Part shown: in pieces, positions 44,481-57,788 of the stretch
Position numbering within the stretch: the stretch's first letter is position 1
Layout: every line of letters starts with the position of its first letter
Assembly (NCBI GenBank): GCA_045580325.1
Contig: JAZNNR010000005.1
Location: 67,504-131,503, forward strand
DNA from: Eubacteriales bacterium
GTDB lineage: Bacteria > Bacillota > Clostridia > Oscillospirales > CAG-272
Direction of reading: 5' to 3'
DNA: 64,000 bases
Translations under genes and position numbers: made by a program
The notes under the pieces: generated by a model
What the model saw: the letters and a program-made list of their open reading frames with translations, nothing else
What the model was told of the DNA's origin: nothing
Databases searched by the model: none

Positions 44481-47400
44481 ATGAAAAAAACAAGACGTTC
44501 ATTCCTGCTGAGCGTAACGGCACTTATTCTGTGCTTTGCTATGCTCCTTGGCTCTACATTTGCGTGGTTTACCGATATCGTAACCAGCTCAAACAACAAA
44601 ATTGTATCAGGTACGCTTGACCTTGACCTTCAGCTTAAGGACAAGGAAACAGGGCAGTACACCTCTATTAACGAGAGCTCCGATCCCGTATTTGACTACG
44701 ACAATTGGGAACCCGGTTATACCGACGTGAAGGTATTAAAGGTTCTTAACGCAGGCTCGCTGTCGTTAAAATGGGTTAGTAATTTTGTGTCCCGCGAAGC
44801 TATTACAAAGCTCGCAGAGGTTATCGACGTTTACGTTAAGACTTCCGACAGCGATATTGCATACCCCGATGAAAGAACCGAGCTCACCTCTGCAAACGGC
44901 TGGAGGAAGATTGGTACTCTTAATCAGATAATCGATTCGACGATTCAGCCCGTAAACGGACAGCTCCTCCCGGGCGAAGCTGATTACTTTGCTGTAGCTC
45001 TGCATATGCAGGAGTCTGCGGGCAACGAATATCAGAACACCTCCGTCGGAGCGTTTGATATTACTGTTCACGCTACTCAGTATACTGTTGAAAACGATTC
45101 CTTCGGTCCCGACTACGACCAGAACGCGCAGTGGCCGAGCGGAGTAATTGACGGTACTATCGTTGCATCTTCTGCCGTAACTACCGATGAAAACGGCAAA
45201 GTAACCACCGCTGTAACTATGACAAACGGCAAGGTTAGTGCAACCGTTCCTGCAGGCACTCAGCTTGTTAGCGGCACAACGAGCGTAACAGTTACGGTTA
45301 GCCCTGTTCGTGAAAGCCAGGCTAACGTTACTCTTAGCGATACCGAAAAAATGCTTCCCGTTGACGTTCACATTGACGGCGTAGCAGAGAATAACGACGT
45401 TCCTATTCCCGTATATCTTACAGAGTGGCTCGACACCGGTCTTAATATCGGTAACTATCATCTCTATCACGTAGAGGACGGCGTAACAACCGAAATGACT
45501 CTCCGCGCGGATAATGCTACTCCCGTACATAATAATTTTGACTATGATCCCGCAACCGGCGACGTAGTTCTCTATATGGCATCATTCTCTGAAGTTGCTA
45601 TTGTAGCAGATACACTTAAGGCTTGGGAAGGTAACTACGATTATTCTTGGTATGATGCAGATGCTACCGAATTGAAGATCGCAAATGCTGACCAGCTTGC
45701 CGCTTTTAGCGCAATCGTCGGCGGTATGGCTAAGGACGAGAACGGCAACTTCTTAATTACATATACAGATACTGATGGTGATGTGCACCACAATGACTTT
45801 TTCGAAAACAAAACCGTAAAGCTTCTAGCTGACATCAACCTTGGCGACAAGGAATCCGAAAACAACCCTGATCTCATATTCTATCCTATCGGTTATTGGA
45901 ATAGTGAGGGCACTTACGAAAAGACCGGCACTGCTATCTCCAGCGGATTCTACGCATTCAAGGGGACATTCGATGGAAACGGTAATACCATCAAGAACTT
46001 CTATCAGAACACTTGGGAAATGAAGGGAGACCACGATTGGTACGACGCTACTCTTCAGTATTACCGCGACGGTATGGGACTCTTTGGTAAGATTCTCGGC
46101 GGTACCGTAAAGAATCTGACCGTTGACAATTTCTCTTGCGACAGTGAAATTGGTACATCTGGCGTTATTGCAGCGTATGCGGACTCCATATACGGCAAAC
46201 CCGCTGTTTTTGAAAATATCACGATAACAAACTGTAATCCCCGCGTTTATAATATAGGAAACGGCGGTATTGTCGGCTGCGCAGGCTGGTATTCGAGAAA
46301 TGACAGCTTGGGTACTGATGACTATGCCAATGCCGTAACATTCAGAAATATCACAGTTGACCAGACAAATAAGATCTCTGCACTGTGGGGCTCTTGGGGA
46401 GTTTCCTGCGCAGGTATTCTCGGTCAGTATTATCCTGACAGCGACTGCGGAATCAAGCTTGAAAACTGCCACGTTGCGGCAATAATTGACGTTAACAATG
46501 ACGTTTGCTCCAACTATCAGTATTATTGGTACAGATATGCAGGTATGTTTATCGGTACTATCAGAGCTAACACCACCGATAATGACGGCTATACAGTTGC
46601 AAACACTACCGGTGTTACTGCTACCGATTGTACCTACACTATGGGTAACTGGAATGAGTATTGGTACTGCGAGATCGTTGCAAACTCGATCGCTTCCTAT
46701 ACTCACGACCACCAGTTCAGCCGTCTTGAAAATATCTACGATTTGTCTAAGATTAAATCCGGTGATACTTGGTTGCAGGAAGGTCACTTCGCTCTGCTTG
46801 ACGAGAACAGAGATATTGTTGACTGCTACCACATCTTTAAAAACTCGGAAGGCGTGCTTTACAGGCACTTCCACGATAAGGGCGACGAAACCAATGGCTA
46901 CGAGCCTTATGAAACCGTTGATGTCGATGGAGACGGAGTAAAAGAAACAGTCCTCAAAGAAGACCGTCAGCGCTACTTTATCCCCTTCAACCAGCTTATG
47001 ACCGGACTTGATATGGGTATCAAAGCGCATACCGAGTTTGAAGGTATTAAGTTTGTTGAGAACGGAACGGTTCAGTCCGTACAGAAATTCAACGCTACTG
47101 AAAATACTGAAATTGCCGAGAATGCTACTGTAACGATCAAGGATTTGTTTATAGCAAGCGGCAATGGAACTATAAGTTCACCCACTGTTCAGGTTTACGT
47201 TTCTCCCATTGGATATGGCAGCACTGTTAGTGCGACATATTCGGGAAATACCGCAGATTGGGAAAAGGGAACTCTTACATTCTCAGGAACAGGTTCGGCA
47301 AAGGTTGTTATTACAGATTATTTCTATTGCACAAATACTGTTCTTTACGTAACGGTTGGCGGCAAAGTAACCGCATATAATAAATTCGACTCTAAGCTTA

Positions 47401-57200: not shown

Positions 57201-57788
57201 GATCCTTACCTCATCTCCAGCGGCGCGGACCTTAAGTGGCTTGCAGATCAGGTTGGCGGCCGTAACAACCACTTCAAGATGACCAATAATATTGATCTGA
57301 ATGGTTATGGGCTGACAATTGGCGCAGTCACTGGTTGGAGTTCGGACCGCTTTGAGGGTGTCTTTGACGGTAATGGTTACTCAATTTTAAATCTTAAGAT
57401 TGATGACACCACATCAACAGGAGGAGTCGCCTTGTTCCCACTTGTTTATCTAGGCACTATTAAGAATCTTACCGTATACGGCACAGTCAACGCTTCCGCT
57501 GAAAATGTTGGCGGTATCGTTGGTTGGAGTCACCGAGGAATCATAGAAAACTGCGTAAGCTACGTTGACGTAACATCCACGGGTCTTCGTACAGGCGGTG
57601 TGGTTGGATGGATCAATAATGCATCTACCGCTACTGGGGCAAAAATCAATAATTGCGTCAACTATGGTTCTGTTAACGGTGCTAGTATCGCTGGCGGTAT
57701 TGCAGGTGAGGCAGGCGTTACTGTTACAAACAGTATGAACTACGGCACCGTTACAGGAGTAACTGTTGGCGATATCTTTGGTAAATAA
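51207..57788 (+). CDS. 2,193-aa giant secreted protein, paralog of the upstream giant over the first ~870 aa; C-terminal part has a possible lectin-like module, two BspA-type LRR blocks and GLUG repeats
   Basis: MKTKKSLLASSIALLLCFAMLLGSTFAWFTDVVTSSGNKIQSG. Motifs: ENWEPGYTDVTILMVENLGTLALKW, EEAGNEYQN..IRIVATQ, ADQLAAFSAIVGGM and FKGTFDGCGHIISDFYQNTWE. C-terminal GLUG-type repeats: FEGVFDGNGYSILNL, GGIVGW, GGVVGW, GGIAGE. Confidence 0.85.
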   Translation: MKTKKSLLASSIALLLCFAMLLGSTFAWFTDVVTSSGNKIQSGSLKLDLKVLTEVEATDGTTYYEWVSIKNDRSPLFTYENWEPGYTDVTILMVENLGTLALKWEARFASDKPLSALADVIDVYVKPGVTSYPANRSDLEANGWNNVGCLKDFVNKLSETTYGYLDGIGSGGTTSATLGIALKMREEAGNEYQNLTLGEFDIRIVATQAMKEDDSFGPDYDEDAQWPVFKGSVSASAPVTNNNGTLASDTTVSSTDGKISATLPAGVTLNNGTDKVTLSVSEKTESEAGILAAPGVAMSPVDVHIEGVAEGNTTPIPVTIQALLPAGLNAGNYKLYHVEDGNTIEMTLRAAGQTPAHNTFDYDPATGDVTLYLASFSEVMVQADMENKWQGGMDFSWYEYSLDGEIFKISNADQLAAFSAIVGGMKYDFEGNLLPEYTPNYAADSFEGKIVTLTGDIFIGDTDKYAENGDASANGFMFYPIGYYNTTYSYQKKDKIDVSSGFKRFKGTFDGCGHIISDFYQNTWEAFGDYNDGYSGTPNHNRDGFGLFGNVLGSRDGEEYTGGIIKNLTVNNFSSDGEFTTTGAIAAYADGALFENISITNCNPRVYNIGNGGIVGCVGWYAETAGLLTTFKNVTVDNSNKITALWGSWDVACGGIVGQYYPTSGQSAHNYPVNAGMHFENCHSSAVIDVYNDVCANYQYYAYRYSGLLIGSVRENVEEDGHSYPDMTGITASGCTVHFGDWNDYYYCEIVANSLASYTHDHQMSRLTQVKSIDVENMKYLPLGETNSAENWVNIPTSGWAHYVVVKDYNETTGKYTHGDGHGFADCYHFNNGNVHTHESAGTETVNGVPGILKEDKQLIYREFNNLVTGYGWGVTSKGVGDLDGVENLDDIIENEGESYDKFVQKSHDANLTSNNTYRFGEFFDAISNNPTVSILSPTVTISANNVTAEDKVTVEITRNKDNWENSTIVFRGAGTITLTIQDYYFCNPTTTTLQFEVHTSFLDHTVSPLPINDDFSHENSNTQENRWFETSGESAKYYISAEASNSNSDKAKYFYVETDVTIHGVLDKDSVAKIGFISGTNFRDSGDDSESYRASMFYLETPAYRYEYSSDSSGNNMGTGTKHERTTWNDFKVAEQHNNYNTIYSAPAISLTDATADTALGSSISKGVTFKIALLRDGDTYYFFINGQQAFTYKIDSTSELYEGIDAATNIGFFHDNVKATFSNYKVIRSDISAPTDGVPGHTVTDIVSVKDQRGYIEFTSSDPFTLGTQINGKHWNGKIYYTTSTVNDSTWSNWAEWDGKPITAVKNGDKYVIRLSGDGNTYITGYEKVGGVDQCGFGWTLTGDDDVYCSGNIMTLLDHAKVQRGETPEMGYAAFWQLFKNCTNLASAPTLPATVLTQRCYREMFQGCTSLEEAPVLPATTMWHECYNYMFNGCTSLVDAPDLPATELYLSCYSNMFSNCTSLETVSELPATELAAYCYYAMFMGCPNLKEIPYLPATQIAEHCYNYMFYNKDRDDANAGTGIKISEKYDAEKGYTTEYRIPVTNADIKADYSNYETKKDANGNDIVIDGKTQYNFDYRTYPVSQMFTYTDGKYFAVNDKLFTETHPAYGLGYLPGDIKVVGRNFVEFTSDSEITITSSNGGKTWTNKIEYSTDGKTWTEWTGTTIRANTIYMRGTGNRKLTASDQDTLAGWTITGENIFCNGNIEYLLDYKTVMAGGHPQMDNFCFKALFNGCTGLVKAPELPSMTVAYHGYHSMFKGCTSLVTAPKLPATKLATTCYGAMFADCTSLVNAPALPATTLAGWCYYGMFQGCTSLVNAPELPATTLAEDCYGYMFYGCTSLVNAPEQIPATTLTIRGCEYMFYGCTSLETVPELPATTLADRCYFWMFAGCTKLKEVPYLPATTLANHCYNHMFFGVGITYSNTQKDSCMTKYAFPSISDYVTTYYSFGQMFDGASPLDYVLANSLYIKTGITIVGAPVWNGNDVSTSLQGAGTEADPYLISSGADLKWLADQVGGRNNHFKMTNNIDLNGYGLTIGAVTGWSSDRFEGVFDGNGYSILNLKIDDTTSTGGVALFPLVYLGTIKNLTVYGTVNASAENVGGIVGWSHRGIIENCVSYVDVTSTGLRTGGVVGWINNASTATGAKINNCVNYGSVNGASIAGGIAGEAGVTVTNSMNYGTVTGVTVGDIFGK
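55320..55750 (+). repeat. BspA-type leucine-rich repeat block 1 (~6 units of ~25 aa / 75 nt)
   Basis: F(K/Q/N)(N/G)CT(N/S)L..AP.LPAT.(L/M)...CY..MF, repeated: FKNCTNLASAPTLPATVLTQRCYREMF / QGCTSLEEAPVLPATTMWHECYNYMF / NGCTSLVDAPDLPATELYLSCYSNMF and so on. Confidence 0.8.
56380..56960 (+). repeat. BspA-type leucine-rich repeat block 2 (~8 units)
   Basis: FNGCTGLVKAPELPSMTVAYHGYHSMF / KGCTSLVTAPKLPATKLATTCYGAMF / ADCTSLVNAPALPATTLAGWCYYGMF / QGCTSLVNAPELPATTLAEDCYGYMF and so on. Confidence 0.8.

What the first reader, a model, noticed from the sequence alone, without database searches (positions are those of the whole stretch)
44481..57788. Two tandem ~6.6-kb paralogous giants sharing an ~870-aa N-terminal chassis that includes an unassigned, highly conserved module
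**Seen**
- The two proteins align from the signal peptide to about residue 870, with roughly half of positions identical by eye.
- The shared order is a TasA-like domain, an Ig-like region (..VDVHI(D/E)GVAE(N/G)N..PIPV..(G/A)NY(H/K)LYHVEDG..EMTLRA..FDYDPATGDV.LY(M/L)ASFSEV), then a ~450-aa module.
- That module contains ADQLAAFSAIVGGM, FKGTFDG.G..I..FYQNTWE, NCNPRVYNIGNGGIVGC.GWY, ALWGSW.V.C.GI.GQYYP, YCEIVANS.ASYTHDHQ.SRL and LKED(R/K)Q.
- After this point the proteins diverge completely. One carries beta-helix + Flg_new repeats + Hint. The other carries a lectin-like module + LRR blocks + GLUG repeats.

**Inference**
A duplicated chassis seems to carry swapped distal binding modules, as in polymorphic adhesin or toxin families. 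The central module has FDGxG/GLUG-like elements, but the invariant Cys, His and Asp (THDHQ) suggest a possible metal or catalytic site rather than a pure spacer.
Basis: partly seen in the sequence, partly recalled or inferred. Interest (0 to 1): 0.65.

Follow-up and report, generated by a model that had tools for sequence, protein, structure and literature searches.

The report
Conserved core of giant gut-bacterial surface proteins
Two neighbouring 2,190-residue surface proteins of an uncultured gut Clostridia bacterium share a very conserved, unannotated ~720-residue core (a possibly self-cleaving beta-sandwich, an elaborated beta-helix and an Ig-like domain) that recurs in hundreds of giant proteins with swapped anchors and tips; its function is unknown.

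Summary
Genes A (44481-51053) and B (51207-57788) are 47% identical over about 1,000 residues and unrelated afterwards.

They are old paralogs, not a recent duplication, and no long DNA tract is shared.

The unassigned module (A380-870) has no Pfam, NCBIfam or PDB sequence match. It is the best-conserved part of a large family:
- 622 clusters at 50% identity.
- At least 79 species, all gut Clostridia MAGs.

AlphaFold and Foldseek place the module as a right-handed beta-helix. Its nearest structures are the GLUG-type helices 3n6z and the pneumococcal IgA1-protease N-terminal domain. It carries family-specific invariant loops, including THD.Q, CYH and a His pair with an acidic residue. A metal or ligand site is plausible but unproven.

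The family-wide conserved unit is A228-955, not 1-870. Anchors and distal parts are exchanged by recombination:
- Anchors are TasA/SipW-type, lipobox-like or dockerin-like.
- Distal parts include a second beta-helix, Flg_new repeats, Hint plus tail, or B's unique LRR cargo.

A new lead concerns the "Ig-like" region. It resembles autoproteolytic ZU5/GAIN domains and ends in an invariant [S/T]-F-S turn with invariant His. This layout matches the FIIND SF/S self-cleavage site.

Verdict: a new variant of known kinds, of moderate interest.

The parts
44481..51053 (+). Gene A. 2190-aa SipW-dependent giant with the family's majority architecture.
   Evidence: Intact ORF. Full-length relatives at 54-57% identity in three other gut Clostridia MAGs (L016, L026, L037), and segmental matches in others.
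44481..45125 (+). A1-215. SipW-type signal peptide plus TasA/camelysin-like domain. This is an exchangeable anchor.
   Evidence: PF12389 at 25 bits (cut-off 22.5) and TIGR04088 at 23 bits (cut-off 19). Present in 130 of 253 family members.
45162..45617 (+). A228-379.
   Evidence: Eleven strands in 150 aa with pLDDT about 90. ZU5 and GAIN Foldseek hits appear only when this region is in the model. Present in 240 of 253 members.
45582..45596 (+). S368-F369-S370-E-V. Candidate cis-autoproteolysis site, F369|S370.
   Evidence: F369 is present in 237 of 237 sequences. S370 is present in 236 of 237, and the one exception is Cys. H330 is 237/237, H350 is 230, H297 is 229 and E332 is 225. The motif lies in the turn before the last strand.
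45618..47090 (+). A380-870. The unassigned module: a GLUG-type right-handed beta-helix (about 490-725) plus a C-terminal beta-rich sub-domain (about 745-860).
   Evidence: No Pfam or PDB sequence hit. AlphaFold pLDDT 80, pTM 0.80. The best Foldseek hits are 3n6z and 7uvl_P. 622 clusters at 50% identity match it.
46497..46526 (+). N673-D-V-C-S-N-Y-Q-Y-Y682. Invariant loop.
   Evidence: At least 97% conserved. pLDDT is below 50 in both models. DVxNDV..YQ.Y.YR is also kept in the divergent sub-family.
46665..46715 (+). Y729-C-E-I-V-A-N-S-I-A-S-Y-T-H-D-H-Q745. Invariant loop.
   Evidence: S739, Y740, T741, H742, D743 and Q745 are 100% conserved in 116 sequences. pLDDT is below 50. Replaced by YPWVR in the divergent sub-family.
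46821..46970 (+). C782-Y-H784 ... H796 ... E827. Candidate metal or ligand site in the C-terminal sub-domain.
   Evidence: Invariant in the main family. Equivalents of H784, H796 and the acidic residue are kept in 7-8 of 11 divergent paralogs and lost together in 3.
47088..47660 (+). A870-1060. Two Ig-like domains with the TDYFYC motif. The first closes the conserved core.
   Evidence: BLASTP A965-1057 against B899-995, E = 1e-4. pLDDT about 90. Found in 169 of 253 members.
47658..49460 (+). A1060-1660.
   Evidence: Shared with about 140 of 253 family members and nearly always co-occurring with Hint plus tail. No Pfam or PDB match.
49473..50150 (+). Three Flg_new (Listeria-Bacteroides) repeats.
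   Evidence: PF09479 at E = 8.8e-44.
50376..51050 (+). Hint domain starting at C1966, plus a conserved tail of about 80 aa.
   Evidence: TIGR01445 at E = 4e-4. PF01079 is precomputed in homologues. Hint and tail are each present in about 131 of 253 members.
51207..57788 (+). Gene B. 2193-aa paralog with the same head and core but a unique distal part.
   Evidence: Intact ORF. The C-terminal 1200 aa have almost no counterpart among 251 relatives.
51909..52358 (+). B235-384. ZU5-like sandwich with SFSEV at B375-379 (52329-52343).
52359..53906 (+). B385-900. The module, B subtype, with a longer insert in the C-terminal sub-domain.
   Evidence: 53% identical to A's module. Its best relatives are only about 66% identical.
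54205..57785 (+). B1000-2193. Unique cargo: an unassigned module, two [beta-rich + BspA-type LRR_5] cassettes and a terminal GLUG-like helix.
   Evidence: LRR_5 at E = 2.6e-12. 78-nt repeat families at 55339-55740 and 56395-56955. Weak GLUG hit.
41931..44189 (+). 752-aa TasA-headed protein. It shares residues 1-378 with A, including the ZU5-like domain with SFSPY at 43035-43049, but lacks the module.
   Evidence: BLASTP 36% identity over 391 columns, E = 9e-52. The profile of the sandwich domain hits it at E = 1.3e-11.
39093..39821 (-). SipW-like type I signal peptidase.
   Evidence: PF10502 at 23.4 bits (cut-off 22.9).
35214..37349 (-). 711-aa TasA-headed protein. The sequence after the head looks beta-helix-like by eye and there is no ZU5-like domain.
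   Evidence: Weak PF12389 hit. Sequence shown.

Best explanation
A and B are two old paralogs of a large family of giant, secreted, modular surface proteins. The family is so far found only in uncultured gut Clostridia (Faecousia and other Oscillospiraceae, and MAGs labelled only Eubacteriales).

**Conserved core.** The family is defined by a ~720-residue core (A228-955) with three parts:
1. A 150-residue ZU5-like beta-sandwich that ends in an invariant [S/T]-F-S turn.
2. A ~490-residue right-handed beta-helix of the GLUG / 'FDGxGxxI' kind. It carries family-specific invariant loops and a small C-terminal beta sub-domain.
3. An Ig-like domain.

**Exchangeable ends.** Recombination exchanges what lies on either side of the core.
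- Upstream is an anchor. In this window it is a SipW-processed TasA-type fibre-subunit domain. This would plug the giant into TasA-like fibres encoded by the same locus.
- Downstream is a distal array. A has a second beta-rich region, Flg_new repeats and a self-cleaving Hint plus tail. B has a unique LRR/GLUG cargo.

**Proposed working (inferred).**
- The head anchors the protein and the distal array binds targets.
- The core is the invariant working unit. The beta-helix presents a fixed ligand-binding site, possibly metal-dependent or catalytic, formed by the invariant loops: QNTWE, LWG, DVNND..YQYY.YR, SYTHD.Q, CYH, H796 and E827.
- The ZU5-like sandwich may cut itself at F369|S370. That would leave the passenger held non-covalently by the following strand.

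**Shown:** family membership, fold class, conservation pattern, mosaicism and locus context.

**Inferred:** fibre attachment, ligand or metal binding, and self-cleavage.
For: **Family and conservation**
- 968 word-index hits.
- 622 clusters at 50% identity, of which 237 have E <= 1e-30.
- 150 relatives in GTDB species genomes. The 79 loci kept are all gut Clostridia MAGs.
- The sequence is held in sheep-gut and other gut metagenomes.
- The module is the best-conserved segment: median 53% identity, against 42-46% for the head, sandwich, Ig2 and Hint, and 34% for the second beta-rich region.
- 125 of 491 module positions are at least 97% conserved.

**Fold**
- Module model: pLDDT 80, pTM 0.80.
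- Core model: pLDDT 82.7, pTM 0.83.
- Foldseek top hits are 3n6z (E = 1.6e-3, probability 1.0, TM 0.49 on the target) and the IgA1-protease chain 7uvl_P. Generic pectate-lyase-fold proteins follow.
- The FDGxG start of the module resembles B's own C-terminal GLUG helix.

**Modularity**
- Coverage and architecture tallies.
- Leader classes: SipW/TasA 128, lipobox-like 32, N-terminal dockerin-like 12, other 78.
- 31% of pairs with 70-80% identical modules have unrelated C-termini.
- Mosaic identity: A against L001 is 25-43% at 1-300, 89-93% at 400-700 and 22-47% at 1100-1700.
- P0043 is an A/B chimera.
- 15 of 79 loci carry 2-3 module genes in tandem.

**Locus**
- A SipW-like peptidase and two further TasA-headed proteins lie nearby.
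- TasA-like genes are the only recurrent neighbours in 26 loci, 10 of 148 ORFs.

**Self-cleavage lead**
- ZU5 hits 4d8o, 3ud2, 3f59, 3g5b and 6m3p, and the GAIN hit 4dlo, have probability 0.84-1.0. They appear only once A228-379 and A871-960 are added to the model.
- F369, H330, N305 and Y355 are present in 237 of 237 sequences. S370 is present in 236 of 237, with one Cys.
- The layout matches the FIIND SF/S site with its two essential upstream His residues (PMC3210808).
- It also matches the N-terminal ZU5 plus C-terminal HINT pattern described for large bacterial surface proteins (PMC3482391).
Against: - No function has been tested for any member. Every member comes from a MAG or metagenome contig.
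- The Pfam GLUG model does not hit the module, and the fold matches are weak (E >= 1.6e-3, TM on the query 0.35).
- The invariant loops are the least confident parts of both models.
- THDHQ and several Cys are not kept in the divergent sub-family.
- The ZU5 assignment rests on Foldseek E-values of 0.045-0.55, without aligned coordinates.
- The ZU5 assignment has no sequence-profile support. A profile search of PDB instead gives a weak cohesin hit (E = 0.053).
- An invariant buried Phe followed by Ser could be purely structural.
- Neighbouring genes give no functional hint beyond TasA-like proteins.
Confidence: 0.6

Rival explanations
1. The module is an enzyme. It would be a metal-dependent hydrolase or lyase built on a beta-helix scaffold, acting on an invariant polymer such as a gut or plant glycan, mucin or the cell's own wall. 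The variable distal modules would then only target it.
For: - Its conservation exceeds that of every other segment.
- It has invariant His, Asp, Glu, Arg, Tyr and Trp residues. H742/D743, H784, H796 and E827 form a candidate His/His/carboxylate set.
- The His pair and the acidic residue are kept or lost together in divergent paralogs.
- Most lower-ranked fold neighbours are beta-helix glycan-active enzymes.
- Some relatives carry dockerins, CBM-type domains (PF16738, PF18283) and a pectate-lyase domain.
- Zhang et al. 2012 note ZU5-bearing surface proteins with enzymatic domains (PMC3482391).
Against: - No known catalytic motif and no profile match to any enzyme family was found.
- The closest structures, 3n6z and the IgA1-protease N-terminal domain, are non-catalytic or uncharacterised. 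In IgA1 protease that helix binds substrate and gates the active site (PMC7695701).
- There is no sugar-utilisation or transporter context.
- THDHQ is absent from the sister sub-family.
Confidence: 0.25
2. The module is only a rigid stalk, an elaborated GLUG beta-helix. Its conservation would reflect folding and packing constraints, including packing against the two flanking domains. There would be no ligand or catalytic site.
For: - Much of the invariant set is Gly, Asn, aliphatic or aromatic residues at beta-helix ladder positions, for example KNLTV, ENITI, NC.. and GGIVG.
- pTM of 0.83 for the three-domain core suggests a fixed, rod-like assembly.
- GLUG helices elsewhere act as scaffolds.
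Against: - A spacer is rarely the most conserved part of a modular adhesin.
- Invariant polar residues sit in long loops that stay poorly modelled even with the flanking domains present.
- The second beta-rich region of the same proteins is far less conserved, at 34%.
Confidence: 0.2
3. The pair is a recent tandem duplication in which one copy acquired a new tip.
For: - The genes are adjacent and co-oriented, with equal lengths (2190 and 2193 aa) and similar leader regions (D3 and D6 repeats).
Against: - The two proteins are only 47% identical.
- No DNA tract longer than 85 nt reaches 81-89% identity.
- A's module is 87% identical to that of another Faecousia MAG, whereas B's best relatives are about 66% identical.
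- A and B represent two old subtypes of the C-terminal sub-domain that recur across the family.
- Tandem arrays are common in other genomes.
Confidence: 0.05
4. The genes are a polymorphic toxin system. A conserved trunk would deliver variable C-terminal toxins released by Hint.
For: - N-terminal ZU5-like and C-terminal Hint domains are the releasing peptidases described for polymorphic toxins (PMC3482391).
- The proteins show mosaic recombination.
Against: - The Hint domain and its ~80-aa tail are conserved in about 131 of 253 members, at 46-49% median identity, rather than polymorphic.
- No small immunity-like ORF follows A. Gene B starts 153 nt later.
- B ends in LRR and GLUG adhesion-type modules.
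- No toxin family hit was found.
Confidence: 0.04

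Closest known systems
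GLUG-type beta-helix: PDB 3n6z (BACOVA_03286, 'putative IgA1 protease') and the N-terminal beta-helix of Streptococcus pneumoniae IgA1 protease (7uvl/7jgj; PMC7695701)
   Same: - Right-handed beta-helix that opens with the F-x-G-x-F-D-G-x-G-x-x-I turn and repeats N-C / GG(I/L)VG-type coils.
- Best Foldseek matches of the module.
- Found in large Gram-positive or Bacteroides surface proteins.
   Different: - The Pfam GLUG model does not match the module.
- The module is about 200 residues longer, with long invariant loops and an extra C-terminal beta sub-domain.
- No M26 metalloprotease domain follows it.
ZU5 superfamily autopeptidases: ZU5 of UNC5b, ankyrin and PIDD, FIIND of NLRP1 and CARD8, and GAIN/GPS (PMC3210808, PMC3482391)
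   Same: - A ~150-residue beta-sandwich.
- Foldseek hits to five ZU5 structures and one GAIN structure.
- An invariant [S/T]-F-S in the turn before the last strand, plus invariant or near-invariant His and Glu upstream. This resembles the FIIND SF/S motif with H252, H270 and E279.
- Placed near the N-terminus of a giant surface protein that ends in Hint, as described for bacterial ZU5 proteins.
   Different: - No sequence-profile match to ZU5, FIIND or GPS.
- Structural E-values are only 0.045-0.55, and the aligned region was not reported.
- No UPA domain follows.
- Bacterial ZU5 domains were described with a CxH motif rather than SFS.
- Cleavage is untested.
TapA-SipW-TasA and BsaA biofilm fibre systems (Pfam PF12389, TIGR04088; PMC9674648, bioRxiv 10.1101/2024.11.04.621531)
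   Same: - SipW-type signal peptide and TasA/camelysin-like first domain.
- A SipW-like peptidase and further TasA-like genes lie in the same locus.
   Different: - Here the TasA-like domain is only the first 10% of a 2,190-residue protein.
- It is interchangeable with lipobox-like or dockerin-like leaders in relatives.
- Polymerisation or fibre attachment is not shown.
Modular, recombining Gram-positive and gut adhesins (internalin/Flg_new and BspA-LRR proteins) and polymorphic toxin trunks
   Same: - A conserved trunk with exchangeable distal binding modules.
- Flg_new and LRR_5 repeats.
- Mosaic identity profiles.
- Hint at the C-terminus.
   Different: - The most conserved part is an internal unannotated core rather than the secretion or anchor end.
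- There is no LPXTG, SLH or choline-binding anchor.
- There is no toxin and immunity pair.

Membership tests
SipW-dependent TasA/camelysin-like proteins (PF12389, TIGR04088) | SipW-type signal peptide (TIGR04088) above the curated cut-off | tested here: met
   A scores 23.0 bits and B 25.2 bits, against a cut-off of 19.
SipW-dependent TasA/camelysin-like proteins (PF12389, TIGR04088) | TasA/camelysin domain (PF12389) above the gathering score | tested here: met
   A scores 25 bits against a cut-off of 22.5. B is below cut-off at 13.7 bits, but its windows over residues 1-215 are 28-74% identical to A's.
SipW-dependent TasA/camelysin-like proteins (PF12389, TIGR04088) | Dedicated SipW-type signal peptidase in the locus | tested here: met
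   39093-39821 (-) matches PF10502 at 23.4 bits against a cut-off of 22.9.
SipW-dependent TasA/camelysin-like proteins (PF12389, TIGR04088) | Assembly into fibres by donor-strand exchange | not testable with these tools
   Needs electron microscopy or biochemistry.
GLUG beta-helix (PF07581; 3n6z / IgA1-protease N-terminal domain type) | Match to the Pfam GLUG motif model | tested here: not met
   No hit in either module at E <= 10. Only B's C-terminal helix gives a weak hit, at E = 0.0028 and below cut-off.
GLUG beta-helix (PF07581; 3n6z / IgA1-protease N-terminal domain type) | Right-handed beta-helix fold closest to 3n6z / 7uvl | tested here: met
   Foldseek ranks 3n6z first (E = 1.6e-3, probability 1.0, TM 0.49 on the target) and 7uvl_P second. 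The match is weak and partial.
GLUG beta-helix (PF07581; 3n6z / IgA1-protease N-terminal domain type) | Opening F-x-G-x-F-D-G-x-G-x-x-I turn followed by GG(I/L)VG-type coils | tested here: met
   FKGTFDGNGNTI at A493-504 and NGGIVGC at A594-600. There is local BLAST similarity to B2049-2090.
ZU5 superfamily autopeptidase (ZU5 / FIIND / GPS / Nup98-C) | ZU5-type beta-sandwich fold | tested here: inconclusive
   Five ZU5 chains and one GAIN chain were hit with probability 0.84-1.0, but E = 0.045-0.55. The aligned region is inferred only by comparing.
ZU5 superfamily autopeptidase (ZU5 / FIIND / GPS / Nup98-C) | [H/S]-F-S type motif in the turn before the last strand, with a Ser, Thr or Cys nucleophile | tested here: met
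   [S/T]368 in 225 of 237 sequences, F369 in 237 of 237, S370 in 236 of 237 with one Cys. Strand 371-377 follows.
ZU5 superfamily autopeptidase (ZU5 / FIIND / GPS / Nup98-C) | Conserved upstream His and acidic residues needed for cleavage | tested here: met
   H330 in 237 of 237, H350 in 230, H297 in 229 and E332 in 225. Their spatial proximity to S370 was not checked.
ZU5 superfamily autopeptidase (ZU5 / FIIND / GPS / Nup98-C) | Sequence-profile match to ZU5, FIIND or GPS models | tested here: not met
   None of 87 members hits these Pfam families at E <= 10. No ZU5 chain appears in the PDB profile search.
ZU5 superfamily autopeptidase (ZU5 / FIIND / GPS / Nup98-C) | Actual self-cleavage | not testable with these tools
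   Needs protein expression and mass spectrometry.
Polymorphic toxin system | Hypervariable C-terminal toxin domain followed by an immunity gene | tested here: not met
   The Hint-plus-tail end is conserved in about 131 of 253 members. No ORF lies between A and B. No toxin family hit was found.
Known metallo-hydrolase families | Recognised metal or catalytic motif, or a profile match | tested here: not met
   No Pfam, NCBIfam or PDB sequence match for the module. It has no HExxH motif.

The most novel reading that the evidence does not exclude
The invariant core would be a two-part machine new to Gram-positive surface biology.

**Latch.** A ZU5/FIIND-like sandwich cuts the chain at F369|S370. 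It sits directly behind the anchor, which can be a TasA-type fibre subunit, a lipid or a dockerin. The 1,800-residue passenger then stays attached only by one inserted beta-strand. This would be a bacterial counterpart of GAIN, SEA and FIIND tethers, releasable by force or by a signal.

**Enzyme.** Immediately next to the latch lies a previously undescribed metal-dependent enzyme. It is built on a GLUG-type beta-helix and uses the THD.Q, CYH, H796 and E827 site.
Probability: 0.15. Interest if true: 0.8.

Novelty: new variant of a known kind. Interest (0 to 1): 0.5.

Why it matters
- These giants are among the largest proteins of abundant, uncultured gut Clostridia from ruminants, birds and humans. 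Their best-conserved ~720 residues carry no annotation in Pfam or NCBIfam.
- Defining the core gives annotators a handle on at least several hundred proteins. It splits into a ZU5-like sandwich, an elaborated GLUG-type helix and an Ig-like domain.
- The core also separates the invariant working part from the exchangeable anchors and tips.
- If the SFS turn is a self-cleavage site, it would extend ZU5/GAIN-type non-covalent tethering to TasA-fibre-borne proteins of Gram-positive bacteria.
- That would also explain why the sandwich and the helix are always adjacent.
- If the helix holds a metal or catalytic site, it would be a new enzyme or lectin family of the gut microbiome.

Tried and rejected
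- Sequence searches of the module against Pfam, NCBIfam and PDB, with a single sequence and with a 17-sequence profile, found nothing.
- Pfam and PDB searches of A1060-1660, B1000-1330 and B's whole distal part found nothing useful. The 'lectin-like' and second 'beta-helix' labels stay unverified.
- Including the flanking domains in the fold did not raise confidence in the invariant loops. The idea that the loops are simply inter-domain interfaces got no support.
- A profile of the sandwich domain against PDB and Pfam gave no ZU5, FIIND or GPS hit. It gave only a weak cohesin hit (4dh2, E = 0.053) and an uncharacterised protein sharing a TGD..L..DFSE-like segment (2lio, E = 0.65).
- A tally of 148 flanking ORFs from 26 loci showed no recurrent partner except TasA-like genes. 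No CAZyme, transporter or sortase link was found.
- A search for RNA runs gave no clear transcript evidence.
- Recent gene conversion between A and B was rejected.
- The polymorphic-toxin reading was rejected.
Copy number in the window's own genome was therefore not counted.
Spatial clustering of the invariant residues could not be measured.

Full report
**1. Observation**

The window holds two intact, co-oriented ORFs. A is 44481-51053 (2190 aa) and B is 51207-57788 (2193 aa).

BLASTP aligns A3-953 with B2-990 at 47% identity and E = 0. A sliding-window profile shows three zones:
- 45-70% identity up to A~750 / B~768.
- 10-30% through an Ig-like domain, to A~955 / B~990.
- Nothing beyond that.

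A has a second copy of that Ig-like domain (A965-1057 against B899-995, E = 1e-4). The true breakpoint is therefore A~1060 / B~1000, not 870.

At the DNA level only 49-84-nt stretches at 71-89% identity coincide, and they lie at the most conserved peptide motifs. The genes are old paralogs with no recent gene conversion.

**2. Annotated parts**

| Part | Result |
|---|---|
| SipW-type signal peptide, both proteins | TIGR04088 above cut-off |
| TasA/camelysin-like head, A | PF12389 above cut-off |
| Flg_new x3, A | E = 8.8e-44 |
| Intein/Hint N-terminal block at C1966, A | weak; PF01079 precomputed for close homologues |
| BspA-type LRR_5 blocks, B | E = 2.6e-12 |
| Terminal GLUG-like helix, B | weak, below cut-off |

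**3. The unassigned module (A380-870)**

It has no Pfam hit at E <= 10, no NCBIfam hit and no PDB sequence hit, either as a single sequence or as a 17-sequence profile.

It defines a large family:
- 968 hits in the word-indexed search. The top 120 are all at least 52% identical and all from long proteins.
- 622 clusters at 50% identity with E <= 1e-3, of which 237 have E <= 1e-30.
- 150 relatives in GTDB species genomes. The best 79 are all MAGs of gut Clostridia: Faecousia, Oscillospiraceae, 'Eubacteriales' and Ca. Avispirillum, from ruminant, bird and human guts.
- The window's own sequence is held in sheep-gut and other gut metagenomes.

In 116 full modules, 125 of 491 positions are at least 97% conserved.

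**4. Fold of the module**

AlphaFold2 with a 17-sequence alignment gives pLDDT 80 and pTM 0.80, an almost all-beta model.

Foldseek against PDB ranks the hits as follows:
- First, 3n6z, the Bacteroides ovatus 'putative IgA1 protease' (E = 1.6e-3, probability 1.0, TM 0.49 on the target).
- Second, the pneumococcal IgA1-protease chain 7uvl_P. Its N-terminal domain is a small beta-helix that binds the IgA1 Fab and gates the active site (PMC7695701).
- After these come only generic pectate-lyase-fold enzymes and tailspikes at E > 0.1.

The module is therefore an enlarged relative of the GLUG / 'FDGxGxxI' beta-helix, although the Pfam GLUG model does not hit it.

The coils are readable in the sequence: KNLTV.., ENITITNC.., RNITVD.., LENCHVA.., ATDCTY... 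Many invariant residues are ladder positions.

The two most conserved loops are the least confident parts of the model, with pLDDT below 50:
- A672-683, VNNDVCSNYQYY.
- A734-745, ANSIASYTHDHQ.

They stay below 50 when the flanking domains are added.

**5. A sister sub-family as a natural experiment**

Fifteen of 79 loci carry two or three module genes in tandem. Many of the extra copies are 1,100-1,200-residue proteins with a much more divergent module, scoring 130-225 bits.

These copies keep the following:
- F.PIG.
- F.GTFDG..HTI.
- QNGW(E/D).
- E556.
- LWG.
- DV.NDV..YQWY.YR..GM.IG.
- W..Y.YC.
- R748.
- FNQL..G.G.G.

They replace ASYTHDHQFSRL by ..YPWVRVE.G and lose C676.

Equivalents of H784, H796 and the E827/D828 acidic position are kept in 7-8 of 11 and are missing together in 3. 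That joint retention or loss is what a shared site would show. It is weak evidence, read by eye from one alignment.

**6. The conserved unit and what is exchanged**

I mapped 251 relatives onto A.

| Segment of A | Members with it (of 253) |
|---|---|
| TasA-like head, 1-215 | 130 |
| 'Ig-like' region, 228-380 | 240 |
| Module, 380-870 | 252 |
| Following Ig domain(s), 870-1060 | 169 |
| Second beta-rich region, 1060-1400 | 140 |
| Flg_new | 29 |
| Hint | 132 |
| Tail | 131 |

The last segments almost always occur together.

B's last 1,200 residues have essentially no counterpart. A therefore shows the majority architecture and B is the odd one.

Leaders fall into four classes:
- SipW/TasA-type: 128.
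- Lipobox-like: 32.
- N-terminal dockerin-like: 12.
- Other: 78.

All of the recognisable ones are anchoring devices.

Evidence for exchange:
- Among pairs whose modules are 70-80% identical, 31% have unrelated C-termini.
- A against the Faecousia protein in L001 is 25-43% identical at 1-300, 89-93% at 400-700 and 22-47% at 1100-1700.
- A against L016 is 92-93% identical at 1500-1700 but 41% at 700-800.
- P0043 is 79-93% A-like up to about residue 530 and 80-88% B-like afterwards.

Recombination among paralogs and across species is thus well supported, including inside the module.

**7. The 'Ig-like region' looks like a ZU5-type self-cleaving domain**

Folding the whole core (A228-960, 15 sequences) gave pLDDT 82.7 and pTM 0.83. 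That is high for three domains, so their arrangement is probably fixed.

Foldseek on this model brought up hits that were absent from the module-only search:
- Ankyrin-B ZU5-ZU5-UPA, 4d8o (probability 1.00).
- BAI3 GAIN, 4dlo (probability 0.99).
- Erythroid ankyrin ZU5 domains 3ud2 and 3f59 (TM 0.53 on the 153-residue target).
- UNC5b, 3g5b.
- AnkG, 6m3p.

Each aligned over 139-168 columns. The tool does not report aligned coordinates. The only added piece of that size is A228-379, which has eleven strands in 150 residues. This assignment is an inference.

ZU5, GPS/GAIN and the Nup98 C-terminal domain form one superfamily of cis-autoproteolytic domains. N-terminal ZU5 plus C-terminal HINT has been described for large bacterial surface proteins (PMC3482391).

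Conservation in this domain across 237 family members:

| Residue | Count (of 237) |
|---|---|
| N305, H330, Y355, G360, F369 | 237 each |
| S370 | 236, the single exception being Cys |
| Residue 368 = Ser or Thr | 225 |
| H350 | 230 |
| H297 | 229 |
| E332 | 225 |

The [S/T]-F-S triplet lies in the turn between the last two strands and is followed by strand 371-377. CARD8 and NLRP1 cut themselves at SF|S in the same position. There they depend on a buried Phe, the second Ser, two upstream His residues and a Glu (PMC3210808).

The upstream 752-aa TasA-headed protein (41931-44189) has the same domain, ending in SFSPY.

Against this reading:
- Structural E-values are only 0.045-0.55.
- No sequence profile links the domain to ZU5, FIIND or GPS.
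- A PDB profile search gives a weak cohesin hit instead.
- A buried Phe followed by Ser can be purely structural.

I put self-cleavage at about 0.3.

**8. Locus context**

A SipW-like peptidase (39093-39821, -) and two further TasA-headed proteins (35214-37349, - and 41931-44189, +) lie next to the giants.

In 26 related loci, TasA-like genes are the only recurrent neighbours, at 10 of 148 ORFs. There is no glycan-utilisation, transporter or sortase signal.

Earlier notes of this scan on other genomes describe the same TasA-headed giants and the Hint-plus-tail cassette. I treat those notes as leads only.

**9. How it most likely works**

| Status | Statement |
|---|---|
| Shown | A secreted, modular giant with a conserved three-domain core |
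| Shown | Exchangeable anchor and tip |
| Shown | A TasA/SipW locus |
| Inferred | SipW removes the signal peptide |
| Inferred | The TasA-like head joins a fibre by donor-strand exchange, as TasA and BsaA do (PMC9674648; bioRxiv 10.1101/2024.11.04.621531) |
| Inferred | The distal repeats (Flg_new, LRR) bind targets |
| Inferred | The core is the invariant working part |

For the module I rate three readings:
- A fixed ligand-binding platform, about 0.45.
- An enzyme, about 0.25-0.3.
- A mere stalk, about 0.2-0.25.

It is the most conserved segment of these proteins (53% median identity against 34-46% elsewhere). It is invariant across hosts. This argues for an invariant ligand, substrate or partner rather than a host-specific receptor.

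- The module does not map cleanly to a plain repeat.
- Many chassis and cargo combinations exist.

**10. Novelty and score**

Each ingredient has a known relative: the GLUG-type helix, the ZU5-like sandwich, the TasA head and the Hint end. This is therefore a new variant of known kinds, not a new category.

What is new:
- The definition of an unannotated core of about 720 residues shared by hundreds of giant proteins.
- The obligate pairing of a ZU5-like sandwich with an elaborated beta-helix.
- A concrete, cheaply testable self-cleavage site.

Interest: 0.5.

Noticed in passing
window 13505-20719 (-): A 2404-aa protein with a GH94 catalytic domain (E = 6e-92), a GH94 supersandwich domain and a glucoamylase-like domain. 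It looks like a cyclic beta-1,2-glucan synthase or phosphorylase-type giant and is unrelated to the surface-protein family.
   Followed up: no
window 58747-61274 (+): A 709-aa Schlafen-group-3 / DUF2075-type helicase (PF09848, E = 2e-65) whose stop overlaps the start of a NUDIX gene. It may be a defence or nucleotide-surveillance pair directly downstream of gene B.
   Followed up: no
window 44230-44268, 44353-44391, 51080-51118: A 39-nt element (GGTCGGGCGGCAA.AAAAG.GC...) occurs twice upstream of gene A and once upstream of gene B, at 77-79% identity. The stretch from upstream of the start codon through the signal peptide is 71% identical between the two genes. This suggests a shared leader or regulatory element.
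   Followed up: partly
loci L005, L006, L008, L016, L017, L030, L033 (ORFs of 1,100-1,200 aa upstream of the giants): A divergent sister sub-family keeps the sandwich and the beta-helix. It replaces ASYTHDHQFSRL by YPWVRVE.G...SN.RYG.P and ends FNQLYGG.GQGVY. It is a useful natural control for the function of the module.
   Followed up: partly
protein P0043 (1879 aa, Logan assembly): This protein is a chimera inside the module. It is A-type (79-93% identity) up to about residue 530 and B-type (80-88%) afterwards. That gives direct evidence of recombination between the two module subtypes.
   Followed up: yes
window 55339-55740 and 56395-56955: Two blocks of 78-nt (26-aa) LRR units about 1 kb apart indicate an internal duplication of a [beta-rich module + LRR_5] cassette in gene B.
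   Followed up: partly
window 35214-37349 (-): A 711-aa TasA-headed protein runs from the TasA-like domain straight into sequence that looks beta-helix-like by eye, with no ZU5-like sandwich. The sandwich is therefore not an obligatory companion of the TasA head.
   Followed up: partly
window 20772-23030 (-): A ComEC-like competence protein (PF03772, E = 1e-52).
   Followed up: no
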